A DNA stretch of 20,069 nucleotides, taken from NCBI GenBank assembly GCA_019057865.1, contig JAHLWP010000054.1, positions 1 to 20,069 of the forward strand. Reading direction: 5' to 3'. The notes beneath the pieces were generated by a model. It had not been told where the DNA came from and ran no database searches. It saw nothing but the letters and a program-made list of their open reading frames with translations. A program made the translations under genes and the position numbers. Position 1 is the stretch's first letter; each line of letters opens with the position of its first letter. This DNA is from Promethearchaeota archaeon (GTDB lineage Archaea; Asgardarchaeota; Lokiarchaeia; Sigyniarchaeales; SOKP01). This document shows, in pieces, positions 2,380-18,099 of this stretch.

Positions 2380-2925
2380 TTAATTAGTAGCAATTTCTTT
2401 AATATTGTCCCATCCATATGATACTACTATATATTTATCTCCACCTATTTCTTTATAATTCTCAGTTAAATATTTTCCTCGGAGTTTTTCATAAAAGGCA
2501 CGATATTTACTCTCCTTTAAGACCCACACCAGCATACTATTAATTCCATGTTCTAGAAGATGATTTACAACTTTTTGGACTAATTGAGCACCAATTCCCT
2601 TTCTTTGATACTCTCCAAGAACATATATGGCTAATAGTTCTCCATTGTACTTAGAAGTTATAGGATCCTCTATATTGGGTTCAAATTGTTCTAATCCACC
2701 TACAGTGAAACCAATTATATTCCTTAGCTCATCTTCAACAACATAAAAAAAGTGTTTTTCTTCCTGATTTTCCAATCGCTCCTTCCATCGACTTTCACGT
2801 CCTTTATAAACTAAGCTTTGAAGGAAATCATCTGAGATTATGTCTTTATAAGCACTTCTCCATGTATCAACATGAACTTTGGTGATTCCTAGCGCATCAG
2901 ATATTTCTGCTTTTCTACACTTCAT
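2380..2925 (-). CDS. GNAT family N-acetyltransferase
   Basis: AIYVLGEYQRKGIGAQL acetyl-CoA binding motif (Q/RxxGxG), IIGF strand and FYEKL motif. Start reassigned to ATG 2925 (MKCRKAEISDA), which removes the overlap with the upstream gene. Confidence 0.9.
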   Translation of the reverse strand: MKCRKAEISDALGITKVHVDTWRSAYKDIISDDFLQSLVYKGRESRWKERLENQEEKHFFYVVEDELRNIIGFTVGGLEQFEPNIEDPITSKYNGELLAIYVLGEYQRKGIGAQLVQKVVNHLLEHGINSMLVWVLKESKYRAFYEKLRGKYLTENYKEIGGDKYIVVSYGWDNIKEIATN

Positions 2926-2953
2926 TTCTTTTCTTTTTTTTTGAAAGGTTAAT

Positions 2954-4249
2954 TTAAGAGATACATATTTTATCAAAATCTTTCTTAAGTTGATCACGAA
3001 AATCAGGATGGGCTATATTAATCAAGGCTTTTGCTCGTTGGCGAATTGTTTTTCCACGTAAATTGGCAATACCATATTCAGTAATCACATTATGAACATC
3101 ATTACGTGAAGTGGTTACACAGGCTCCTTCACTTAATTTAGAAACAATTCGACTAATTGTTTTCTTTTTATTTGTTGAGGGAAGTGCTATAATTGATTTA
3201 CCTCCAGGAGATATACTTGACGCACGAACAAAATCAACCTGTCCTCCGACACCAGAGTATTGTTGGTATCCGAGTGTATCGGCGCATACTTGGCCAAATA
3301 AATCTATTTGGAGGGCAGAATTAATAGAAATTAGGTTATTTACTTTCCCTGCAATCATAAGATTATTAGTGTAATCAACAGGATGCATTTCAACATTAGG
3401 ATTATTATCAACAAATTGATAAAGCTTTTTTGTGCCCATTAAGAACGTAGCAATAAACTTACCCGGATTTAGGTTATTACATTTATTTGTTACAACTCCT
3501 TTTTCATATAACTCAACTACTCCATCAGAGAACATTTCTGTGTGAATTCCTAAATCTTTTTTTTCCGTTAGAAATTTCAATGCTGCATCAGGTATCCCAC
3601 CAATACCTAATTGGAGATTTGCTCGATCTGGAACTAATGAGGCAACATTCCTTCCAATATTTTCTTCAATACTGGTGATTTTAGGAAGAGGTATTTCGAT
3701 TAAGGGTCTGTCAGTCTCAACAATATAATCAACTTCAGATATATGAATATAAGCTCCATATGTTCTAGGCATTTGTTTATTTACTTCAGCAATTACAATT
3801 TTTGAGGATTTTGCAGCTTGCATTGTATAATCTACGGATACTCCGAAGCTAAGGTAACCATTCTCATCTGGCGGAGAAAGTTGAATTAATGCTACATCTA
3901 CCGGTAAAATATTATCTCGAAAAAGGCGTGGAATTTCCGAAAAAAATACGGGCGTATAATCAGCTCTCCCTTCCCTAATTGCTTGTCGTGCTCCTGCACC
4001 TGCAAATAAAGAGTTATGGTAAAAATGTTGTTCCATTTCGGGCAAGCAATATTGACATTCTCTTAGAGGGACCATATGAACAATCTCAATGTTGGTTAGC
4101 CGATCTTTTTGTCTAACAAGTTCATCTACTAAGACAATTGGTTCTCCGGCAGCATGTCCAAAAACTACTCTATTTCTTGACTTTATATTTAAGATGGCTT
4201 CTTCTTTAGAGGTAACTTTTCGAGAATAATGGTCGTCCCAATTCTTCAT
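2954..4249 (-). CDS. Acetyl-CoA hydrolase/transferase family protein, 4-hydroxybutyrate CoA-transferase-like (Cat2/AbfT type)
   Basis: Motifs LQLGIGGIP, LGIHTEMFSDG (catalytic Glu), SGVGGQVDF, ITEYGIANLRGK, LINIAHPDFR. SD-like AAGGTG lies upstream of the ATG. Confidence 0.9.
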   Translation of the reverse strand: MKNWDDHYSRKVTSKEEAILNIKSRNRVVFGHAAGEPIVLVDELVRQKDRLTNIEIVHMVPLRECQYCLPEMEQHFYHNSLFAGAGARQAIREGRADYTPVFFSEIPRLFRDNILPVDVALIQLSPPDENGYLSFGVSVDYTMQAAKSSKIVIAEVNKQMPRTYGAYIHISEVDYIVETDRPLIEIPLPKITSIEENIGRNVASLVPDRANLQLGIGGIPDAALKFLTEKKDLGIHTEMFSDGVVELYEKGVVTNKCNNLNPGKFIATFLMGTKKLYQFVDNNPNVEMHPVDYTNNLMIAGKVNNLISINSALQIDLFGQVCADTLGYQQYSGVGGQVDFVRASSISPGGKSIIALPSTNKKKTISRIVSKLSEGACVTTSRNDVHNVITEYGIANLRGKTIRQRAKALINIAHPDFRDQLKKDFDKICIS

Positions 4250-5447: not shown

Positions 5448-5590
5448 AAAGATGCTTTACGTACGTAAAAAACTAATAAATTTTATAAAGTATGATGATT
5501 TCATGGTATATTAAGATTTTTTTACTAATATAGAAAGATCTTTACGTACGTAAAAAACTAATATTATTTTAATAAATAAATGAATATTTA
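5448..5590 (+). promoter_or_regulatory. Tandemly duplicated operator/promoter: two copies of palindrome TTTACGTACGTAAA, each followed by a TATA-like box
   Basis: Identical 24-mer CTTTACGTACGTAAAAAACTAATA at 5455-5478 and 5540-5563 (85 bp period). Perfect 14-bp palindromes at 5456-5469 and 5541-5554. TTTATAAA at 5482-5489 and TTTAATAA at 5568-5575. Lies directly upstream of the DUF2284 ATG at 5620. Confidence 0.7.
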
Positions 5591-5619: not shown

Positions 5620-6405
5620 ATGACGCAGAAACTGATACCTGAAGTTGAGAAAGAATGGTCTAAAATATCTTTCAAATGGCGGAGATTATTACCAAAAAAG
5701 AAAGATAGGCCACCATCTCCAATAAAAATTGAACCTGATGAAAAGATCTTTCTTGAGCTCCTTGAACGATCTAATAAAATCATAAATCAAATAATTATAA
5801 AATCAAAAATTAAAGCTACTGGTCATGCTAAATTAATACCAACAGATAAAATTGTAATAGATCCGCGCGTACGCTGGAAATGTAGAATTCCTGTGTGTTT
5901 TGGTTACGGAACTAGTATAAATTGTCCTCCACATTCTCCAACTACCGAAGAGATGAGAGAAATTGTTAGTAGTTATAATCATGCTATATTAATTACATTT
6001 TATCCACCGACAAAAAATCATATTTTTCCCGGAATTCTTCTCGGTGTCCAGGGAGATGTAAATCTATTAAATCAAATAGTCTCAATGATAGAAGCAGAAG
6101 CAACATACTTGGGATATTATCTTGCTATGGGGTTTAAAGGTGGACCTTGTGTTGGTTGCGGATTTTTTTCTCCAGAATATTTTAAAGACTTAATGCAACA
6201 AAAAAAAATTCCCCCTTGTCCTGTGCTCGATAATCAAATGTGCCGGCAGTATTTAAGAGCTAGACCTTCACTAGAGGCTTGTGGAGTGGATATATTTGCT
6301 ACAGCTGTCAAATGTGGAGAAAAACCACCATTTGTAATTAATCCCGAACATCCAAAGGAATCTGTTCCCTATGTTGGTTGGCATGGTATCGTTTTAATTA
6401 TTTGA
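5620..6405 (+). CDS. DUF2284 family Cys-rich predicted metal-binding protein
   Basis: RVRWKCRIPVCFGYGTSINCPPHSP, GGPCVGC, C-x7-C and ARPSLEACGVDIFAT match the pattern I recognise as DUF2284. Confidence 0.8.
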   Translation: MTQKLIPEVEKEWSKISFKWRRLLPKKKDRPPSPIKIEPDEKIFLELLERSNKIINQIIIKSKIKATGHAKLIPTDKIVIDPRVRWKCRIPVCFGYGTSINCPPHSPTTEEMREIVSSYNHAILITFYPPTKNHIFPGILLGVQGDVNLLNQIVSMIEAEATYLGYYLAMGFKGGPCVGCGFFSPEYFKDLMQQKKIPPCPVLDNQMCRQYLRARPSLEACGVDIFATAVKCGEKPPFVINPEHPKESVPYVGWHGIVLII

Positions 6406-6445
6406 TAATATCTATTATTAAGAGTTGAGAGAGGTAAATTTTATA

Positions 6446-7108
6446 ATGGAAAATACAAGTTTAGAAAATCAGACAAAAACTAAAAATCCTTTATATTATA
6501 TTAATAACGTCATTGAAGCGGTTAGTTCACTCGACTTTTATTCAATGAAAGACACCATAAAACAAGCAATAGATGCAAGAGTACCCATAATCGATATTAT
6601 AAATAAGGGTATTTTAAAAGGATTGGAAGAATCAGGAGAAATGGGGCTTATTTTAGCGGCAGAAGCTCTCCAAGGTGAAATTATATCTATAGATGAGGAA
6701 GATAGAAGAAGATTATACAAGGCTAGGAATTACTCGGGAAAGGTAGTTGTCGGAACAATTGAAGGGGATATTCATAATTTAGGTAAAAATATTCTAATCG
6801 CGTTAATGAAATCTTATGGTATGGATATTATCGACCTTGGAATAGATGTGAAACCTGAAAAATTTGAAGAAGCCGCTCGAATGCCAGATGTTAAAGTTAT
6901 TGGTATATCATATCTTCTTTCTTCAGCGGAACCCTTCATAAAAAGAGCAGTGTCCTTATTAAAAAAAGGAGATTTAGCAAATAAGGTAAAAGTTATTTTG
7001 GGAGGTGCTGCTGCGTCTTATGAATTCACAGAACAAATAAAAGCAGATGCTTACGCAAAGGACGCTTTAGAAGGTTTTAATCTAATTGATAAATGGTTAC
7101 GGAATTAA
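6446..7108 (+). CDS. Methyltransferase-cognate corrinoid (B12-binding) protein, MtaC/MtbC/MttC-like
   Basis: VVVGTIEGDIHNLGKN (DxHxxG base-off/His-on), IDLGIDV, SYL (SxL), ILGGAA, ADAYAKDA, plus an N-terminal helical cap domain. ATG 6446 follows GAGGT and is preferred to TTG 6425. Confidence 0.92.
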   Translation: MENTSLENQTKTKNPLYYINNVIEAVSSLDFYSMKDTIKQAIDARVPIIDIINKGILKGLEESGEMGLILAAEALQGEIISIDEEDRRRLYKARNYSGKVVVGTIEGDIHNLGKNILIALMKSYGMDIIDLGIDVKPEKFEEAARMPDVKVIGISYLLSSAEPFIKRAVSLLKKGDLANKVKVILGGAAASYEFTEQIKADAYAKDALEGFNLIDKWLRN

Positions 7109-7149
7109 GAATAATTAATCCCTTCCTTTTATCTATAAGGGGTACTCAT

Positions 7150-9156
7150 ATGGAGAATAAAAGAAATACCCTCATTTTGGAACCAATATCTAAACGAATC
7201 AATGTTGTTGAAGGTTCAACTGTTTATGAATCGCTTTTAGCGTTAAATTTACCTATAGGTGCCCTATGTGCAGGTAAGGGAACATGTGGAAAATGCGTAA
7301 TTAGTGTTTTAGATCCTAATCCAAAAATTTCAGAACCATCAGAACAAGAAAAAAAAATATTAAACAATCAAAAAATATTAGAAGGTTATAGGTTAGCATG
7401 TCAAACTAAAATTTTAGGAGATTTAAGAGTATTTTTAACTGACTCATTAATTTCGAGAGGAATTAGAATTTTAGTAGATGCTGATTTAGAATCTCTCGGA
7501 ATAAAAAATAATGATAAAACTAACCCCGGAATTACTTCACTGCTTTGTAAGATCACCTCTGCGGATTTAGGTAATCCAAAAAATGATTTATCTAGATTAT
7601 TTGAGGACGTAATAGAAAGAAATAGTAATTATAAGATAAATGAAAATCACACCTTATTTCATGTAAATGATATTCTATATAACACTATTAAAAAATTACC
7701 ACATATTATGAGAAAAGAAGATGGTCTTGTTACAGCTTTTTTTAGAAAGCTCTCATTGGAAGATCCATGGACTCTTCATGATATTGATGTCGGAGATAAA
7801 AATAATAATCTTTTTGGATTAGCTATTGATATTGGAACTACTACTCTTGTTGGATATTTAATTTGTTTAAAAACAGGCGAAATTGCAGCGGTTTCTGCTA
7901 TGTTAAATCCTCAAGTGGCTATCGGTGAAGATATTATTTCAAGAATTACCTATATCGTAAAAAATAATGCAATTCATAAAGCAAAAGAATTGGTGATTAA
8001 TGCTTTAAATCATATACTTGAGGATTGTTGTGATAAGGCTCACATTTCTATTTCGTGTGTTAAAGATATTTCTGTTGTAGGAAATACAGGAATGCATCAC
8101 ATATTTTTTGGAATAACCCCAGAATTTTTAGCTGTTTCACCTTACATTCCAGTATTTAAAGCCCCAATTAATGTAAGTGCGGGTATGCTTGGAATAAAAT
8201 GTAATCCCAATGTAAATGTATATTCTCCTCCTGTTATTGCTGGCTACGTAGGAACAGACACAATTGGATGTATAATCTCATCTAAAATCAATACATACGA
8301 TAAATATTCTCTTTTAATTGATATTGGTACTAATGGTGAACTTGTGTTGGGAAATAATGAAGGATTAGTTACATGTTCATGTGCTGCTGGTTCGGCTTTG
8401 GAGGGTGCTCATATTTTATATGGTATGCGAGCTTCTGAAGGAGCAATAGAATCAGTCAAAATTGATAGAAATACTTTGGAACCTTCAATAGACGTAATAG
8501 GAAACATAAAACCACTTGGATTGTGTGGTTCAGGGCTCATTGACATGATAGCAGAAATGCTGAAATCAAATATCATCACGCGTGCGGGAAAATTTAATAT
8601 CAAATCAGAAAAAGTAATGAAACATCGTCGTGTTGTAAAAAGGGAAGATAAATACCATTATATTATATATAAAGCTGAATGGGATAATGAACAATATCAA
8701 AAAAATATTAATGATAATAACATTGAGGAAATCACCATTTCTCAGAAAGATATTCATCAGCTTCAACTAGCGAAAAGTGCATTTTTATCTGCAGCGAATT
8801 TATTACTTAAAATGGAACATAAAAAAAAAGAATCTCTTGAACAAGTTCTTTTAGCAGGAGCCTTTGGAACTTATATCAATAAAAAAAATGCCGCTTTTAT
8901 TGGTTTATTCCCTGAGGTTGAACAAAACTCCATTTTCCAGATTGGAAATTCAGCAGGAATGGGAGCACAATTATTTATAAAAGATATTGAGCAAAGATAT
9001 CTAGCAAATAAGATTGCCTATGAGATTAAGTATAGAGAAATTGCATCATTACCATCATTTCAAAAGGAATTCACTTTTTCTCTTTATTTTCCTCATTATA
9101 ATCTTGACAGATTCCCTCTAATAAAACAAGAATATGATGAAATTCCTTTAAAGTAA
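7150..9156 (+). CDS. ATP-dependent reductive activator of corrinoid proteins (RACo/AcsV type, ASKHA ATPase with N-terminal [2Fe-2S] ferredoxin)
   Basis: CAGKGTCGKC...RLACQ [2Fe-2S] domain, plus AIDIGTTT, GEDIISRI, VVGNTGMHH, IDIGTNGE, CAAGSALEG, GLCGSG, LAGAFG and GNSAG. Start reassigned to ATG 7150. Confidence 0.92.
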   Translation: MENKRNTLILEPISKRINVVEGSTVYESLLALNLPIGALCAGKGTCGKCVISVLDPNPKISEPSEQEKKILNNQKILEGYRLACQTKILGDLRVFLTDSLISRGIRILVDADLESLGIKNNDKTNPGITSLLCKITSADLGNPKNDLSRLFEDVIERNSNYKINENHTLFHVNDILYNTIKKLPHIMRKEDGLVTAFFRKLSLEDPWTLHDIDVGDKNNNLFGLAIDIGTTTLVGYLICLKTGEIAAVSAMLNPQVAIGEDIISRITYIVKNNAIHKAKELVINALNHILEDCCDKAHISISCVKDISVVGNTGMHHIFFGITPEFLAVSPYIPVFKAPINVSAGMLGIKCNPNVNVYSPPVIAGYVGTDTIGCIISSKINTYDKYSLLIDIGTNGELVLGNNEGLVTCSCAAGSALEGAHILYGMRASEGAIESVKIDRNTLEPSIDVIGNIKPLGLCGSGLIDMIAEMLKSNIITRAGKFNIKSEKVMKHRRVVKREDKYHYIIYKAEWDNEQYQKNINDNNIEEITISQKDIHQLQLAKSAFLSAANLLLKMEHKKKESLEQVLLAGAFGTYINKKNAAFIGLFPEVEQNSIFQIGNSAGMGAQLFIKDIEQRYLANKIAYEIKYREIASLPSFQKEFTFSLYFPHYNLDRFPLIKQEYDEIPLK

Positions 9157-9219
9157 GAATGCGAGAAAAAATTAATAAGATTATTTTTACGTTAGGAATT
9201 ATTTATTTACAATAGTAAA

Positions 9220-9238: not shown

Positions 9239-11062
9239 ATGATAAAAACTGGAAAAGGTAAAATTTCGAAGAAAAAATCGGGTAACCGTGCATATGATAG
9301 TTATTGGGTTTATATCCCCAGTAAGATTGCTAAAGATAGCGCTTTTCCATTTAGAGATAAAGAAGAAGTCGTGATAGAATTAAAGGGTGAACACTTGGAA
9401 ATTCGAAAAATATATAACCTAAGTGACCTAACAAAAGTCTATGATATTGAGGATGCTACACTGCCAAAAATAATTGAAAGTAAAGCACTGATTAATAAAG
9501 ACAAACCATTTATTTATTATCGTGATGAGGTTTATACTTATGAAGAGGCAAATATAATTTCAAATCAGATAGCTAATGGACTTATAAAACAAATTAAAAA
9601 ATTAAAATTGAAAAATCCTCATATATCCTTGATATTTCCAAATAATCCAGAGGCTCTTTTTTGTTGGTTCGGCATTGTAAAAACTGGTAGCGTATTTGTA
9701 CCAATAAGTTACTTATTAAAAAAGAATTTACTGGAATATGTATTGAAAAATAGCGATTCAGAAATTTTAATTATCGATTATATATATCTTGCGAATGTTG
9801 AGGAGATTTACGAAAATTTACCCAAAATTAAGAAAATTTTTATCCAAAACGCACCAAATGATTATAAATACGAGGATAAATATGCTAGTTTTTCAGAAAT
9901 CTTTTCTGAAAATTTAGAGAAACCAAATATTCAAATGAACAGTTTCCATCCTCTCGAAATATCATATACATCAGGGACTACAGGAATACCAAAAGGAGTG
10001 TTGTATAGAAATTATTACACCTTGTCAGGAATTAGTGTAGGAAGACAGTTGGAAGATTTAGGATTTGGCAGTAATATTAATAAATTTTATTGTCCCTTGC
10101 CATTATTTCAAGGATTAGAACGATATTTCTTGATAATTCCAATAATGTATCATAATGGATCAATAATAATCGTAGAAAAATTTGATGTTTCAACTTTTTG
10201 GAGTGATATTGGAAAATATAAACCTGATGGATTTTGCTATTATGGAGCACACTTGGCAATGTTGGTAAATCAAACACCGTCAAAAATTGATAGAAACCAT
10301 TCGATTAAATATGCATTTGGAGCTGGAGCCTTAAAAAAGATATGGGAAACCTTCGAAAGAAGGTTTGGGATTCAAATAATTGAAATGTGGTCTCTTGTTG
10401 AGGGAATTGGTTTTACTATAAATAACGTAGGTTCCAAAGGAGGAAAACTAGGTTCTATCGGAAAGGCAGCACGGGGCGTTGAAATTAAAATTGTTGATTC
10501 AGAAGGAAAAGAACTTCCTCCTGGACGAGATCATATCGGTGAAATCTGTGCAAGAACAAGACTCCCCTTTGAACTTGAATACTATAACTTACAAGAAGAG
10601 ACAATAACAAGAAAAGGAGAAGATCGATGGGTTTACACGGGCGATTTTGGATATGCCGATCATGAAGGGTTCATATATTACTTAGGAAGGAAATCAGACA
10701 TGATTCATAGAGAAAAGGAGATATTTTTTTCGGGGGATATCGAAATAGTCGCAAATTCACATCCACTTATAGTCGAAAGCGCTGTTTTTGACGTTTTTGA
10801 TAGCAAATCCTCGGAAAAATATTTAAAAATTTGTGCTGTAATTCAAAAAGGAGCTTCGATTACCCATAAAGAATTTCACAATTTTCTAAAACAAAACCTG
10901 GCCTATTTTATGGTTCCAAGATATATAGAATTTAAAAAAGAATTACCAAAAAATGCAAACGAATTAATTCAGAAATTTATACTTAGAAAAGAATGGGAAT
11001 CAGGAAAATCATTAAAAAATAGCTACGATACGAGGAGTACTCTTGAAGAGAAGAAGAAGTAG
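9239..11062 (+). CDS. AbrB/MazE-like N-terminal domain fused to AMP-binding acyl-CoA ligase domain (CaiC-like, degenerate catalytic motifs)
   Basis: aa 1-57 SYWVYIPSKIAKDSAFPFRDKEEVVIELKGEHLEIRK fits a swapped-hairpin pattern. Ligase motifs YTSGTTGIPKG, WVYTGD, YLGRKSD and YFMVPRYIEF are present. The A10 motif reads PKNANEL. Confidence 0.85.
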   Translation: MIKTGKGKISKKKSGNRAYDSYWVYIPSKIAKDSAFPFRDKEEVVIELKGEHLEIRKIYNLSDLTKVYDIEDATLPKIIESKALINKDKPFIYYRDEVYTYEEANIISNQIANGLIKQIKKLKLKNPHISLIFPNNPEALFCWFGIVKTGSVFVPISYLLKKNLLEYVLKNSDSEILIIDYIYLANVEEIYENLPKIKKIFIQNAPNDYKYEDKYASFSEIFSENLEKPNIQMNSFHPLEISYTSGTTGIPKGVLYRNYYTLSGISVGRQLEDLGFGSNINKFYCPLPLFQGLERYFLIIPIMYHNGSIIIVEKFDVSTFWSDIGKYKPDGFCYYGAHLAMLVNQTPSKIDRNHSIKYAFGAGALKKIWETFERRFGIQIIEMWSLVEGIGFTINNVGSKGGKLGSIGKAARGVEIKIVDSEGKELPPGRDHIGEICARTRLPFELEYYNLQEETITRKGEDRWVYTGDFGYADHEGFIYYLGRKSDMIHREKEIFFSGDIEIVANSHPLIVESAVFDVFDSKSSEKYLKICAVIQKGASITHKEFHNFLKQNLAYFMVPRYIEFKKELPKNANELIQKFILRKEWESGKSLKNSYDTRSTLEEKKK

Positions 11063-11178
11063 AAGAAGGAGATTATAGATTATAATCTTTGTTTTTTGTT
11101 TCCCACTTATCCATGAAGAATTTTAACAAGGTTCTGTTTCAATGAGACTTTTTAAACATTATCAACTTGATATTTATT

Positions 11179-11724
11179 ATGGTAATTACGTTATTTGATC
11201 AACTTGATAAAAATCAATTAAAAGAACTACTAGTTAAATGTTGGATGACTCATGATGGCTCCTGGTTTTATAATTGCGCCCGTGAATTAGGTATTGATAC
11301 TGCTAACAAACTAAATAAAGCAGCTATTAAAACTCTTTCAGTAATTGAAATGCAGCGAGTAAAAAAGGCGATAGGAATGGAGAACATAAAAATCAAAACA
11401 TTTGAGCAGTTAAAAGATTTTATTACTAATGCTTTTAGCGTATTAAAAGCGGATTTTATGGACTTTGAATATACATTCCCTGAAAATAATCGGATACATT
11501 GGGAAATGAACCGATGTTTCGCCTACAAAGGAATGGAAATGATTGGACTCAACAAACAATATGAATGTGGCGTAATATACCGTGTTAGTTGCTGGTTGGA
11601 TGCTCTCGGTATAAACCATACAATTGAGCCTGAAATCGATAAATGCTTATTAAATTCTCATAAAAAATGTTATGGGGATATTATTCTGGATAACTTCCCT
11701 TCTAACATTTCGGTCAAATATTGA
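11179..11724 (+). CDS. DUF6125-like protein (V4R/ATC-hydrolase-like Cys-containing ligand-binding fold)
   Basis: KCWMTHDGSWF...GIDTANKLN N-terminal motif, followed by spaced Cys residues (RCF, YEC, KCL, KCY). ATG 11179 is preferred to TTG 11167. Confidence 0.65.
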   Translation: MVITLFDQLDKNQLKELLVKCWMTHDGSWFYNCARELGIDTANKLNKAAIKTLSVIEMQRVKKAIGMENIKIKTFEQLKDFITNAFSVLKADFMDFEYTFPENNRIHWEMNRCFAYKGMEMIGLNKQYECGVIYRVSCWLDALGINHTIEPEIDKCLLNSHKKCYGDIILDNFPSNISVKY

Positions 11725-14497: not shown

Positions 14498-14989
14498 ATG
14501 GAAGGAATGAGTTATACACGGCAAATTATTGAGCTCCTAAAAGATGATAAATTAACAAGTGATGAAATAGCTGATAAACTTGAAATAAGCAAACAAGATG
14601 CACGCACTTATCTCTTAAGATTGAAAAACGAAGATAAAGTGATGGTGATTGGTAAAAGAGGGCGATTTTATGTTTATACTCTTAAGGCATTGGAAGATAG
14701 CTTAAGAGAACCAAAAAAGGAGCATGTACTACTTGAATCTGTAGCTGATTTGAGTGAAAAATTTTATGAGGTATATAAAGATACAATAAAAATGAAAGAT
14801 GAATATATTGAATCCCTTGAAGAGTCTTTCAATTCAAAATTAGTATATATAGAAAGTCTACAGATTTCAAATGAAATTAAAAAAGAGTCAATAGTAAAAC
14901 TTGAAGAAGAAAATAATAGATTAAAAGCTGAGATAAAAGTACTTAAAAAAAAGATTCAAGAACTTACAGATCTGTTATCTGGAAAATAA
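14498..14989 (+). CDS. Winged helix-turn-helix protein with C-terminal coiled coil
   Basis: QIIELLKDDKLTSDEIADKLEISKQDARTYLLRLKNEDKV...GRFYVY (wHTH with wing) and a C-terminal leucine-zipper-like heptad LEEENNRLKAEIKVLKKKIQEL. Confidence 0.8.
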   Translation: MEGMSYTRQIIELLKDDKLTSDEIADKLEISKQDARTYLLRLKNEDKVMVIGKRGRFYVYTLKALEDSLREPKKEHVLLESVADLSEKFYEVYKDTIKMKDEYIESLEESFNSKLVYIESLQISNEIKKESIVKLEEENNRLKAEIKVLKKKIQELTDLLSGK

Positions 14990-17273: not shown

Positions 17274-17693
17274 ATGAATCTTGGAAAAATTAAAAAAGCT
17301 ATAAGGAAAACATTATCGGAAAAAGAAGAGATAATTGCCTCTTATTTATATGGCTCGTTTATAAATCGTAAATATTTTAGAGATCTTGATGTTGGATTAT
17401 TAATTAATGATACATATAAACCCAATGTTTTATATGAAGCTAGAATATCGGGAGAATTAGAAATTGCTCTAAAACCTATATTCGATAATTTTAAAACCAT
17501 CGATGTCAGAATATTGAATGACAAACCTTTAAGCTTTTTGTTTTCGGTTCTAAAAAATTCAGAATTGATTTTTTCTAAGAATGAGTCAAAAAGAGTTAAA
17601 TTTGAAGCTGATATCATTAAAAAATATCTTGATATTAAACCCCATTATGAATTATATAATAAGATGCGGAGGTTAAGGTATGCAAATAGATAA
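17274..17693 (+). CDS. mntA: Minimal nucleotidyltransferase (MNT) antitoxin, type VII TA
   Basis: YLYGSF-x7-DLDVG and IDVRILND Pol-beta-type motifs; overlaps the downstream HEPN gene by 14 bp. Confidence 0.88.
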   Translation: MNLGKIKKAIRKTLSEKEEIIASYLYGSFINRKYFRDLDVGLLINDTYKPNVLYEARISGELEIALKPIFDNFKTIDVRILNDKPLSFLFSVLKNSELIFSKNESKRVKFEADIIKKYLDIKPHYELYNKMRRLRYANR

Positions 17694-18099
17694 GAATATA
17701 ATTCAAGGGAAAATTGATATAATTGAGAAAGATCTTAACTTCCTAAATGAATATAAGGATAAAGAGGTAGAAGATCTTTTAACAAGTTATAAAGATATCC
17801 AAGCTGTAAAATATTCTCTTTTTGAAATTATTGAAGCTTCAATTGATATGGCGTCTCATATTATATCAGCAAAAGGACTTAAAAGACCTGAAAGTTATGC
17901 TGAAATGTTTGAAATCCTTGGTAAACAAAATTTAATTAATATGAATTTAAGTAGAAAGTTATCCGAAATGGCTAGATTTAGAAATATTTTGGTTCATAGT
18001 TATGCTGAAGTAGATAATTCCAAAATTTTAAACTATGTTAAGGAAGAATTAAAAGATGTTGAGGATTATATTATAAATCTATTAGAATTAATTAAATGA
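17680..18099 (+). CDS. hepT: HEPN (DUF86) ribonuclease toxin, type VII TA
   Basis: IEASIDMASH and FRNILVHSY (R-x4-H-x-Y, including the Tyr adenylylated by MntA in characterised systems). Confidence 0.9.
   Translation: MQIDKNIIQGKIDIIEKDLNFLNEYKDKEVEDLLTSYKDIQAVKYSLFEIIEASIDMASHIISAKGLKRPESYAEMFEILGKQNLINMNLSRKLSEMARFRNILVHSYAEVDNSKILNYVKEELKDVEDYIINLLELIK

What the first reader, a model, noticed from the sequence alone, without database searches (positions are those of the whole stretch)
10381..10980. The acyl-CoA ligase domain looks like a pseudo-enzyme: catalytic A10 lysine replaced by leucine
Seen: the A10 motif P-x4-(G/E)-K reads PKNANEL (Leu576, codon TTA at 10964-10966). A5 YGxTE reads WSLVE. 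The A8 loop reads GRKSDMIHREKEI where G-E-N is usual. The P-loop YTSGTTGIPKG and TGD are intact. Known: the A10 Lys is required for adenylate formation in ANL enzymes (and is the acetylation-control site), and the A8 Gly lines the CoA tunnel. Inference: nucleotide binding is retained and catalysis is lost, as expected for an enzyme repurposed as a sensor. This independently supports the regulator hypothesis.
Basis: partly seen in the sequence, partly recalled or inferred. Interest (0 to 1): 0.7.

Follow-up and report, generated by a model that had tools for sequence, protein, structure and literature searches.

The report
Decayed acyl-CoA ligase domain, likely sensor
An Asgard-archaeal protein joins a small DNA-binding-type domain to an acyl-CoA-ligase fold whose catalytic residues have decayed, and its gene sits behind a conserved palindrome, so it is most likely a ligand-sensing gene regulator built from a dead enzyme.

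Summary
In ORF 9239-11062 (607 aa), PDB relatives align Leu576 (TTA, 10964-10966) with the A10 catalytic Lys. A5 reads WSLVE, and A8 lacks the usual G-E-N. The P-loop and TGD are intact.

This is a family trait. About 120 Asgard proteins of roughly 600 aa share an AbrB/MazE-like N-domain fused to this ANL fold.
- At A10, 116 scored members read L42, F27, E20, M8, R8, K3.
- The 65 nearest unfused bacterial relatives read K37, R26.
- Fourteen other ANL paralogs in this genome keep Lys.

The loss does not coincide with the fusion. The earliest-branching fused members keep canonical motifs (TSGTTG, His, GRKKDMIRRRGENIS, and Arg at A10). A crown clade of 106, which includes this protein, lost the basic A10 residue, A4 His, A5 Thr and the A8 Gly-Glu-Asn. 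Lys579 is not a replacement, because active relatives also carry it.

The regulator reading has independent support. TTTAC-N4-GTAAA lies about 35 bp upstream of 18 of 48 fused genes, against 3 of 434 control genes. The genome's only two TTTACG-NN-CGTAAA sites head this operon.

Loss of catalysis, ligand binding and DNA binding are all untested.

The parts
9239..11062 (+). Gene for the 607-aa AbrB-like/ANL fusion protein (P0001)
   Evidence: ORF. Pfam AMP-binding 7.4e-51 and AMP-binding_C 3e-07. About 120 full-length homologues of roughly 600 aa in Asgard MAGs.
9239..9418 (+). N-terminal domain (residues 1-60) with beta-beta-alpha-beta-beta topology, AbrB/MazE/VapB-like
   Evidence: AF2 on a 27-sequence alignment gave pLDDT 78.5. 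Foldseek top hits are MazE, VapB, AbrB-N and SpoVT. The seven best VIA-align rows are all AbrB/MazE-type: Sso7c4-type 5itj, VapB 5k8j, 3zvk and 9h6a, pSSVi C56 7xi6, AbrB 1yfb and SpoVT 2w1t, Z 2.6-3.8. Y19, F36, P37 and F38 are invariant. Pfam is silent.
9491..10558 (+). ANL large (N-terminal) subdomain, residues 85-440
   Evidence: Pfam PF00501. The AF2 full model has pLDDT 89.2. Foldseek E 1e-38 to 4wv3.
9965..9997 (+). A3 P-loop YTSGTTGIPKG, intact in this protein
   Evidence: In sister subfamilies Ser245 and Thr247 are replaced (fused entropy 1.63 and 1.51, against 0.23 and 0.11 in unfused relatives).
10109..10111 (+). A4 position 291 is Gln where the nearest unfused relatives have His
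   Evidence: Unfused H in 64 of 65; fused Q82, H19. Basal fused members keep His.
10388..10402 (+). A5 WSLVE: Glu388 kept (invariant), Thr387 replaced by Val
   Evidence: Position 387 in unfused relatives is T53, S6; in fused members it is V51, A17, T15, M14.
10637..10645 (+). A7 TGD, intact
   Evidence: Asp469 is present in 114 of 116 fused members.
10685..10723 (+). A8 GRKSDMIHREKEI: Arg484 and hinge Asp487 kept, the G-E-N of ...RRRGENIS replaced by K-E-I
   Evidence: Gly493 is present in 64 of 65 unfused relatives and 43 of 116 fused members.
10946..10975 (+). A10 PKNANELIQK: Leu576 (10964-10966) at the catalytic Lys/Arg position; Lys579 (10973-10975) at the usual +3 basic position
   Evidence: Gap-free alignments to PDB ANL enzymes. 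Genome paralogs keep G-K.
9206..9219 (.). Inverted repeat TTTACAATAGTAAA, starting 33 bp before the start codon (20 bp lie between its end and the ATG)
   Evidence: The exact pattern TTTAC-N4-GTAAA lies within 120 bp upstream of 18 of 48 fused genes, against 3 of 434 other genes in the same loci (Fisher p = 3.6e-17). Its position is conserved at about 30-55 bp.
5456..5469 (.). Palindrome TTTACGTACGTAAA, copy 1, upstream of the DUF2284-corrinoid protein-RACo-fusion gene row
   Evidence: 0 of 100 shuffles give two or more matches. One of only two TTTACG-NN-CGTAAA sites in the 4.26-Mb genome, where 0.10 are expected. Conserved upstream of DUF2284 in orthologous loci.
5541..5554 (.). Palindrome TTTACGTACGTAAA, copy 2, ending 65 bp before the DUF2284 start
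5620..9156 (+). Co-oriented upstream genes: DUF2284 (5620-6405), B12-binding corrinoid protein (6425-7108), RACo reductive activase (7093-9156)
   Evidence: Pfam. The order DUF2284-B12-RACo-fusion gene is kept in about 20 orthologous loci, and five further loci cut at a contig end show RACo next to the fusion gene.

Best explanation
The protein is most likely a one-component transcription regulator of Lokiarchaeia-type Asgard archaea. Its N-terminal AbrB/MazE-like domain would dimerise into a swapped-hairpin barrel. That barrel would bind the inverted repeat TTTAC-N4-GTAAA in front of its own gene and the stronger TTTACG-NN-CGTAAA palindromes heading the DUF2284-corrinoid protein-RACo row. Its acyl-CoA-ligase (ANL) fold would no longer run the canonical adenylation and thioesterification cycle. 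Instead it would act as the effector-binding module, probably for an adenine nucleotide and/or an acyl or carboxylate ligand.

Shown here: the residue states, their family-wide pattern, the order of events on the tree, the fold of both domains, and the association of the repeat with the gene family.

Inferred: loss of catalysis, ligand binding, DNA binding by this protein, and repression.

The family appears to record a path. The earliest fused members look like competent ligases that already carry the DNA-binding-type domain. The crown group, which includes this protein, has let the catalytic residues drift.
For: 1. A10 is Leu in this protein. Across 116 fused members it reads L42, F27, E20, M8, R8, K3. 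In 65 nearest unfused relatives it reads K37, R26. Fourteen other ANL paralogs of this genome keep Lys.
2. A4 His, A5 Thr, the A8 Gly-Glu-Asn and the A8 Arg pair (positions 490/491) are relaxed together in the crown clade, although the fused set is overall the more conserved. At the same time 18 family-specific positions became nearly invariant. That pattern indicates a new constraint rather than decay of the gene.
3. The fused family is monophyletic. Basal members carry canonical motifs and Arg at A10. The crown of 106 (support 0.98) has lost the basic residue.
4. The N-domain has a beta-beta-alpha-beta-beta topology, and its best structural matches are all MazE, VapB, AbrB, SpoVT or Sso7c4-type DNA binders.
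5. The inverted repeat lies about 35 bp upstream of fused genes in several paralogous subfamilies with different neighbours: 18 of 48 against 3 of 434 (p = 3.6e-17). Sites within two substitutions of the 14-mer number 35 in 718 kb of fused loci, against 2.9 +/- 1.8 in shuffles. Of these, 33 are intergenic and 19-177 bp upstream of a gene start.
6. The genome's only two TTTACG-NN-CGTAAA sites head this operon. In another genome the subfamily-specific variant also precedes two ABC-permease paralogs at a second locus.
Against: - No biochemical data exist.
- The AbrB assignment rests on weak scores (Z 2.6-3.8, Foldseek E 0.15 or worse), which is usual for a 50-residue domain. Pfam PF04014 does not match.
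- The loci were chosen because they contain the gene, so outside this genome the association of the repeat with the gene is not a genome-wide test. The 12-mer core is no more frequent than a reversed control in five other genomes.
- Other regulators lie nearby in many loci (a wHTH gene, cluster c7) and could be the binder.
- This protein keeps an intact P-loop, Glu388, Asp469, Arg484 and hinge Asp487, and AF2 places it in the adenylate-forming conformation. A residual or altered activity therefore cannot be excluded.
- The neighbours are CoA-metabolic genes (CoA transferase, thiolase, enoate/dienoyl-CoA-reductase-like), which would suit an enzyme as well as a regulator.
Confidence: 0.55

Rival explanations
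1. The protein is still an enzyme with a non-canonical mechanism. The ANL domain would work without the A10 basic residue. It might catalyse only the second half-reaction on an acyl-adenylate made elsewhere, as reported for PtmA2. It might run in reverse, or use another residue. The N-domain would then serve oligomerisation or partner binding rather than gene control.
For: - The P-loop, Glu388, TGD, Arg484 and hinge Asp487 are intact in this orthologue group.
- The whole ANL core is strongly conserved (83-94% identity among the five closest full-length homologues).
- The fused genes sit among CoA-transferase, thiolase, flavin-reductase and FAD-oxidase genes, with up to three family members in one locus (L040).
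- ANL proteins that split the two half-reactions are reported (PtmA1/PtmA2, as cited in PMC6594144).
Against: - The A8 Gly-Glu-Asn that shapes the pantetheine tunnel has decayed as well (Gly493 in 34 of 105 crown members), so the thioester half-reaction is not specially preserved.
- A4 His and A5 Thr are also lost.
- Subfamilies place Glu in the P-loop and at A10.
- The rival does not explain the inverted repeat that travels with the gene.
Confidence: 0.25
2. The protein is a bifunctional 'trigger enzyme' in the manner of BirA. It would still make, and hold, an acyl-adenylate that acts as co-repressor, so catalysis and DNA binding would be coupled.
For: - Basal fused members carry a complete canonical motif set plus the same N-domain, so this mode is plausible for the ancestor.
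- The AF2 model is in the adenylate-forming conformation.
- The P-loop is intact in this protein.
Against: Adenylate formation is the step that depends on the A10 basic residue (established for acetyl-CoA synthetase, luciferase and 4-chlorobenzoate-CoA ligase; from general knowledge). Here it is Leu, and A5 Thr387 is Val. This reading is therefore more likely for the basal lineages than for this protein.
Confidence: 0.12
3. The palindromes belong to a different regulator, and the fusion protein has some other non-catalytic role, such as scaffold or chaperone for the corrinoid/RACo system.
For: - The row DUF2284-B12-RACo-fusion gene is conserved in about 20 loci, with RACo next to the fusion gene in five more truncated ones.
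- wHTH genes lie nearby in many loci and at 14498-14989 in the window.
Against: - Paralogous subfamilies lack the corrinoid genes and the wHTH neighbour, yet they keep the repeat directly upstream of the fused gene.
- The N-domain occurs only in this one protein in the genome.
Confidence: 0.08

Closest known systems
ANL superfamily acyl-CoA ligases of the PRK06155/PRK06187/CaiC-like clade (NCBIfam NF004808, NF004837, NF005947)
   Same: Same two-subdomain fold and clear homology: NCBIfam E 3e-79 to 2e-65, about 30-36% identity to bacterial relatives, and Foldseek E 1e-38 to 4wv3. The clade-typical A10 context P-K-T-x-T-E-[KR]-[VI]-x-K is still recognisable as P-K-N-A-N-E-L-I-Q-K.
   Different: All scores lie far below the curated cut-offs (266 against 476 bits, and similar). 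The basic A10 residue, A4 His, A5 Thr and A8 Gly-Glu-Asn are replaced. There is an extra 60-residue N-terminal AbrB-like domain. The family is restricted to Asgard archaea.
PtmA2, the non-adenylating acyl-CoA ligase homologue of platensimycin biosynthesis (Wang et al. 2018, cited in PMC6594144)
   Same: It is an ANL-fold protein reported to have given up the adenylation half-reaction.
   Different: PtmA2 is still an enzyme (it performs the thioesterification step) and has no DNA-binding-type domain. Here the thioester-side A8 motif has decayed too. I could not read the primary paper, so its motif states were not compared.
Transcription factors with enzyme-derived effector domains: MocR/GabR/PdxR (GntR wHTH plus aminotransferase fold), ROK repressors, BirA (general knowledge, not tested here)
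   Same: The architecture follows the same logic. A small DNA-binding domain is fused to a full enzyme fold that keeps cofactor or ligand binding and has reduced or lost turnover. Autoregulation works through a palindrome near the factor's own gene.
   Different: The DNA-binding module (AbrB/MazE swapped hairpin rather than HTH) and the enzyme fold (ANL) both differ. I found no report of an ANL fold serving as a regulator's sensor.
AbrB/MazE/VapB/SpoVT swapped-hairpin DNA-binding domains (including archaeal Sso7c4 and pSSVi C56)
   Same: Same size and beta-beta-alpha-beta-beta topology. The best structural matches all come from this group. These domains typically bind palindromic operators as dimers.
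   Different: No Pfam PF04014 match. The domain has its own signature (invariant Y19 and F36-P37-F38). It is fused to a 540-residue C-terminal domain instead of a short antitoxin tail or a GAF domain.

Membership tests
ANL superfamily (fold and homology) | AMP-binding large subdomain plus AMP-binding_C small subdomain | tested here: met
   Pfam PF00501 7.4e-51 and PF13193 3e-07. AF2 pLDDT 89. Foldseek E 1e-38, TM 0.8 to 4wv3.
Catalytically competent acyl-CoA synthetase | A10 basic residue (Lys; Arg in part of the nearest clade) needed for adenylate formation | tested here: not met
   Leu576 aligns to the A10 Lys. The crown clade reads L/F/E/M.
Catalytically competent acyl-CoA synthetase | A3 P-loop [YF]-T-S-G-T-T-G-x-P-K-G | tested here: met
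   YTSGTTGIPKG at residues 243-253. It is eroded in sister subfamilies.
Catalytically competent acyl-CoA synthetase | A5 Thr-Glu (Thr to the alpha-phosphate, Glu to Mg) | tested here: not met
   Val387-Glu388: the Glu is kept and the Thr is lost.
Catalytically competent acyl-CoA synthetase | A7 Asp and A8 Arg (ribose contacts), A8 hinge Asp | tested here: met
   Asp469, Arg484 and Asp487 are present.
Catalytically competent acyl-CoA synthetase | A8 Gly(-Glu-Asn) hairpin lining the pantetheine tunnel | tested here: not met
   K493-E494-I495 in place of G-E-N. Gly is present in 64 of 65 unfused relatives and 43 of 116 fused members.
Catalytically competent acyl-CoA synthetase | A4 His of the nearest clade | tested here: not met
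   Gln291. Unfused relatives have His in 64 of 65.
Catalytically competent acyl-CoA synthetase | Measured adenylation and thioesterification activity | not testable with these tools
   Needs ATP-PPi exchange and CoA-ligation assays.
AbrB/MazE/SpoVT swapped-hairpin domain | Sequence-profile match (Pfam PF04014 or a PDB profile) | tested here: inconclusive
   No AbrB-family hit at E up to 10. Five of 27 members weakly match a B3-like DNA-binding domain, PF20731, E 0.004.
AbrB/MazE/SpoVT swapped-hairpin domain | beta-beta-alpha-beta-beta half-barrel fold | tested here: inconclusive
   The topology is predicted at pLDDT 78. The seven best VIA rows and the ten best Foldseek rows are all MazE, VapB, AbrB, SpoVT, Sso7c4 or C56, but scores are low (Z 2.6-3.8; E 0.15 or worse).
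AbrB/MazE/SpoVT swapped-hairpin domain | Homodimerisation into an interleaved barrel that binds DNA | not testable with these tools
   No multimer prediction and no model coordinates were available.
One-component transcription regulator | A conserved operator associated with the regulator gene | tested here: met
   TTTAC-N4-GTAAA upstream of 18 of 48 fused genes against 3 of 434 controls, p = 3.6e-17. The only two TTTACG-NN-CGTAAA sites in the genome head the operon.
One-component transcription regulator | Direct, ligand-modulated DNA binding | not testable with these tools
   Needs EMSA or footprinting with and without ligands.

The most novel reading that the evidence does not exclude
The AbrB-ANL family may be the first case of an acyl-CoA-ligase fold recruited as the effector domain of a transcription factor. 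It may also preserve the whole path in living lineages. Basal Asgard members would be active ligases tethered to a DNA-binding domain (BirA-like trigger enzymes). Crown members, such as this one, would be dead-enzyme sensors that autoregulate through TTTAC-N4-GTAAA and control CoA, corrinoid and transport gene sets.
Probability: 0.4. Interest if true: 0.75.

Novelty: new variant of a known kind. Interest (0 to 1): 0.6.

Why it matters
Regulators built from enzyme folds are known (MocR/GabR, ROK, BirA). I found no report of an ANL adenylate-forming fold used this way, nor of an AbrB-type domain as its DNA-binding partner.

If confirmed, the family would give Asgard archaea, whose gene regulation is almost unstudied, a defined regulator. 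It would come with a predicted operator and predicted target genes: a methyltransferase-less corrinoid cassette, CoA-metabolic genes and ABC transporters.

It would also offer a graded natural series from apparently active to apparently dead members, useful for studying how an enzyme becomes a sensor.

For annotation, these proteins are currently labelled 'AMP-binding protein' or 'crotonobetaine/carnitine-CoA ligase'. That label is probably wrong as a statement of function.

Tried and rejected
- Lys579 as a substitute catalytic Lys: rejected as an explanation. The same +3 Lys is present in 55 of 65 unfused relatives that also have K/R at A10. Canonical ANL enzymes also carry R/K there. Its geometry could not be measured because model coordinates are not exposed.
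- 'Lys loss tracks the fusion': rejected in its strict form.
- 'No fused member has Lys': wrong. P0083, P0087 and P0090 read S-T-K-F-L-K and are nested in the Glu clade.
- Pfam and PDB sequence profiles for the N-domain gave nothing useful.
- Genome-wide enrichment of the 12-mer core TTACG-NN-CGTAA in five other Asgard genomes: not enriched over a reversed control. Nine of the ten extra sites examined are not near fused genes or recognisable shared targets. The exception is L090, where two sites precede ABC-permease paralogs.
Synteny was therefore taken from the search for related loci.
- The primary PtmA2 paper is not held, so its motif states were not compared.
- Literature searches for an AbrB-ANL fusion and for ANL pseudoenzymes found nothing relevant.
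Full report
**What is there**

The window is contig C59 of a 4.26-Mb, 30.5% G+C assembly. Close homologues come from Promethearchaeota/Lokiarchaeia-type Asgard MAGs. ORF 9239-11062 (+) encodes 607 residues. Pfam finds AMP-binding at residues 85-440 (7.4e-51) and AMP-binding_C at 501-574 (3e-07), and nothing in residues 1-84. NCBIfam places the protein nearest the PRK06187, PRK06155 and CaiC models, far below their cut-offs.

**The observation**

- phmmer alignments to solved ANL enzymes are gap-free across the C-terminus. They put Leu576 on the A10 Lys and Lys579 on the usual +3 Arg/Lys.
- The A8 segment reads ...HREKEIFF where relatives read ...RRRGENIS.
- A5 reads W-S-L-V-E where relatives read Y-G-x-T-E.
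- The P-loop and TGD are intact.

**A family trait, not a private mutation**

The large protein search returned about 120 full-length proteins of roughly 600 aa, at 41-94% identity, all from Asgard MAGs.
- Across 116 of them, position 576 reads L42, F27, E20, M8, R8, K3.
- Lys579 is K in 109 of the 116.
- Every one of the 14 other ANL paralogs of this genome that aligns across A10 keeps Lys there.
- The 65 nearest unfused relatives, which are bacterial at about 30-36% identity, read K37 and R26 at this position. Arg is therefore a common natural state in this clade.

**Order of events**

A FastTree of 116 fused and 65 unfused proteins, built on the ANL region only, makes the fused family monophyletic with support 1.0.
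- The successive early branches carry Arg at A10 (8 members) or Gln/Tyr.
- The three earliest (P0117, P0105, P0081) have YTSGTTGRPKG, His291, W-S-[ML]-S-E, TGD, GRKKDMIRRRGENIS and ...T-A-T-E-R-I-[QK]-K-F. This is a complete canonical motif set, together with the N-terminal domain.
- A crown clade of 106 (support 0.98), which includes the window's protein, has lost the basic residue.
- Three Lys-bearing members are nested inside the Glu subclade and look like a reversion.
- One unfused protein (P0126) is nested in the family and also lacks the basic residue. Its contig could not be inspected.

The fusion therefore preceded the loss, and the ancestral residue was probably Arg.

**Multi-site erosion**

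The table compares crown members with unfused relatives at catalytic positions.

| Position | Unfused relatives (n = 64; R490: n = 65) | Crown fused members (n = 105) |
|---|---|---|
| A4 His291 | H 64 | Q79, H14 |
| A5 Thr387 | T53, S6 | V51, A15, M14, T12 |
| A8 Arg484 | R 64 | R68, K21, N8 |
| A8 Arg490 | R 63 | any residue |
| A8 Gly493 | G 64 | G34 |
| P-loop Ser245 | S 63 | S64, E20, A17 |

- The fused set is overall the more conserved: mean column entropy is 1.54 bits against 2.16. The higher entropy at just these positions is therefore specific. Of 44 positions with entropy below 0.5 in unfused relatives, 15 exceed 1.0 in the fused set, and most of those lie in A3, A4 and A8.
- Conversely, 18 positions are nearly invariant only in the fused family, among them P286, W369, G391, K403 and Y472.
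- Kept throughout are G246, P251, K252, E388, D469 and G483.

I read this as loss of the canonical two-step reaction, retention of a folded pocket that probably still binds a nucleotide or ligand, and new constraints. Binding itself is an inference.

**Lys579**

Lys579 is conserved in the active-looking relatives as well, and it corresponds to the R/K at +3 of canonical enzymes. It is not evidence of compensation. In the AF2 model it is the first residue of the C-terminal helix. The model (pLDDT 89, pTM 0.83) superposes at 3.5-3.8 Å on adenylate-forming-state structures (4wv3, 5bsm, 4g36). It superposes at about 10 Å or worse on thioester-state structures (5bsr, 3a9v).

**The N-terminal domain**

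Residues 1-60 are strongly conserved across all subfamilies, with invariant Y19 and F36-P37-F38 and a basic G-K-G-K-I-x-x-K-K-S-G stretch.
- AF2 predicts a beta-beta-alpha-beta-beta topology at pLDDT 78.
- The top ten Foldseek rows are MazE and VapB chains, with AbrB-N and SpoVT further down the list.
- The seven best VIA-align rows are Sso7c4-type 5itj, VapB (5k8j, 3zvk, 9h6a), pSSVi C56, AbrB-N and SpoVT.
- Scores are low (Z 2.6-3.8), as expected for 50 residues, and sequence profiles are silent. I treat the fold assignment as likely rather than proven.
- The domain occurs once in this genome.

**Context**

In about 20 loci with fused genes at 58-94% identity, the gene follows DUF2284, a B12-binding corrinoid protein and a RACo-type activase on the same strand. 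Five further loci that are cut at a contig end show RACo directly before the gene. Two CoA-transferase subunit genes often lie upstream.

Paralogous subfamilies (40-60% identity) sit instead beside thiolases, an OYE/dienoyl-CoA-reductase-like flavoprotein, a molybdopterin oxidoreductase, a nitroreductase and ABC-transporter genes. Several genomes hold two or three family members.

**An operator that travels with the gene**

- I confirmed two perfect TTTACGTACGTAAA palindromes at 5456 and 5541, upstream of DUF2284.
- They are the only TTTACG-NN-CGTAAA sites in the 4.26-Mb genome, where 0.10 are expected.
- In 718 kb of Asgard loci holding fused genes, sites within two substitutions number 35, against 2.9 +/- 1.8 in composition-preserving shuffles.
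- Of these 35, 33 are intergenic and lie 19-177 bp upstream of a gene start. That gene is DUF2284, the fused gene itself, or the gene just downstream of it.
- The looser pattern TTTAC-N4-GTAAA lies within 120 bp upstream of 18 of 48 fused genes, at a conserved 30-55 bp from the start codon. In the window it is at 9206-9219. It lies upstream of only 3 of 434 other genes in the same loci (p = 3.6e-17). Allowing one mismatch per arm gives 38 of 48 against 69 of 434.
- The spacer differs by subfamily (GTAC/GTCA, GGTC, GAAC, TTAA).
- In one other genome, the GAAC variant also precedes two ABC-permease paralogs at a second locus.

Caveats:
- The loci were selected for the gene.
- The 12-mer core is not enriched genome-wide in five other genomes.
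- A different nearby regulator cannot be excluded.

**Reading**

The best-supported explanation (about 0.55) is an autoregulated one-component regulator whose sensor is a catalytically decayed ANL fold. The rivals are:
- a non-canonical enzyme (0.25);
- a BirA-like trigger enzyme, more plausible for the basal members (0.12);
- an unrelated non-catalytic role (0.08).

The inference is partly supported. The claimed coupling of Lys loss to the fusion is corrected, as is the idea that Lys579 might substitute.

**Limits**

Noticed in passing
G000 contigs C37, C24, C22, C7, C45, C66, C5, C25, C65, C76, C68, C52, C30, C39: Fourteen further ANL paralogs in the same genome all keep Lys at A10 (G-K, A-K or M-K). 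The nearest, C37:48663-50213 at about 31% identity, has an in-frame TAA inside the match.
   Followed up: partly
L090 (G002:C20:71000-85000), sites at 6216 and 7954: Two copies of TTTACGTTCGTAAT each lie about 167 bp upstream of an ABC-permease paralog, with no fused ANL gene on this 14-kb stretch. The same operator variant flanks the fused gene, the neighbouring small gene and the ABC-transporter genes in L044, L046, L047, L049 and L050. This hints at a small regulon.
   Followed up: partly
proteins P0128, P0139, P0174, P0187, P0207, P0226, P0229, P0238, P0239, P0254, P0258: Giant proteins of 3,462-7,137 aa, each with 5-13 separate ANL-like stretches, rank among the best representative hits. 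They may be NRPS-like or something else. They were not examined.
   Followed up: no
protein P0126 (544 aa): This is the only apparently unfused protein nested inside the fused family, and it also lacks the A10 basic residue (S-N). It may reflect a truncated gene call or secondary loss of the N-domain. Its contig could not be fetched.
   Followed up: no
L040 (JAHQWS010000238.1), ANL-family genes at about 4735, 8001 and 15038: Three ANL-family genes lie in one 18-kb locus, interleaved with thiolase-like, FAD-oxidase, CCG/Fe-S and OYE-type reductase genes.
   Followed up: no
window 17274-18099: Two overlapping small ORFs look like a nucleotidyltransferase plus HEPN/DUF86 pair; the second carries an R-N-I-L-V-H motif. 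That would be a MNT-HEPN toxin-antitoxin-type module. This was judged from sequence only.
   Followed up: no
window 2954-4249 (-) and 2380-2997 (-): An acetyl-CoA hydrolase/transferase (PF13336, PF02550) overlaps by 44 bp with a GNAT acetyltransferase gene. Both lie a few kb upstream of the corrinoid row.
   Followed up: no
window 11167-11724: A DUF6125 gene follows the fusion gene on the same strand. This is so only in the closest relatives (L009-L011), so it is not part of the conserved set.
   Followed up: partly
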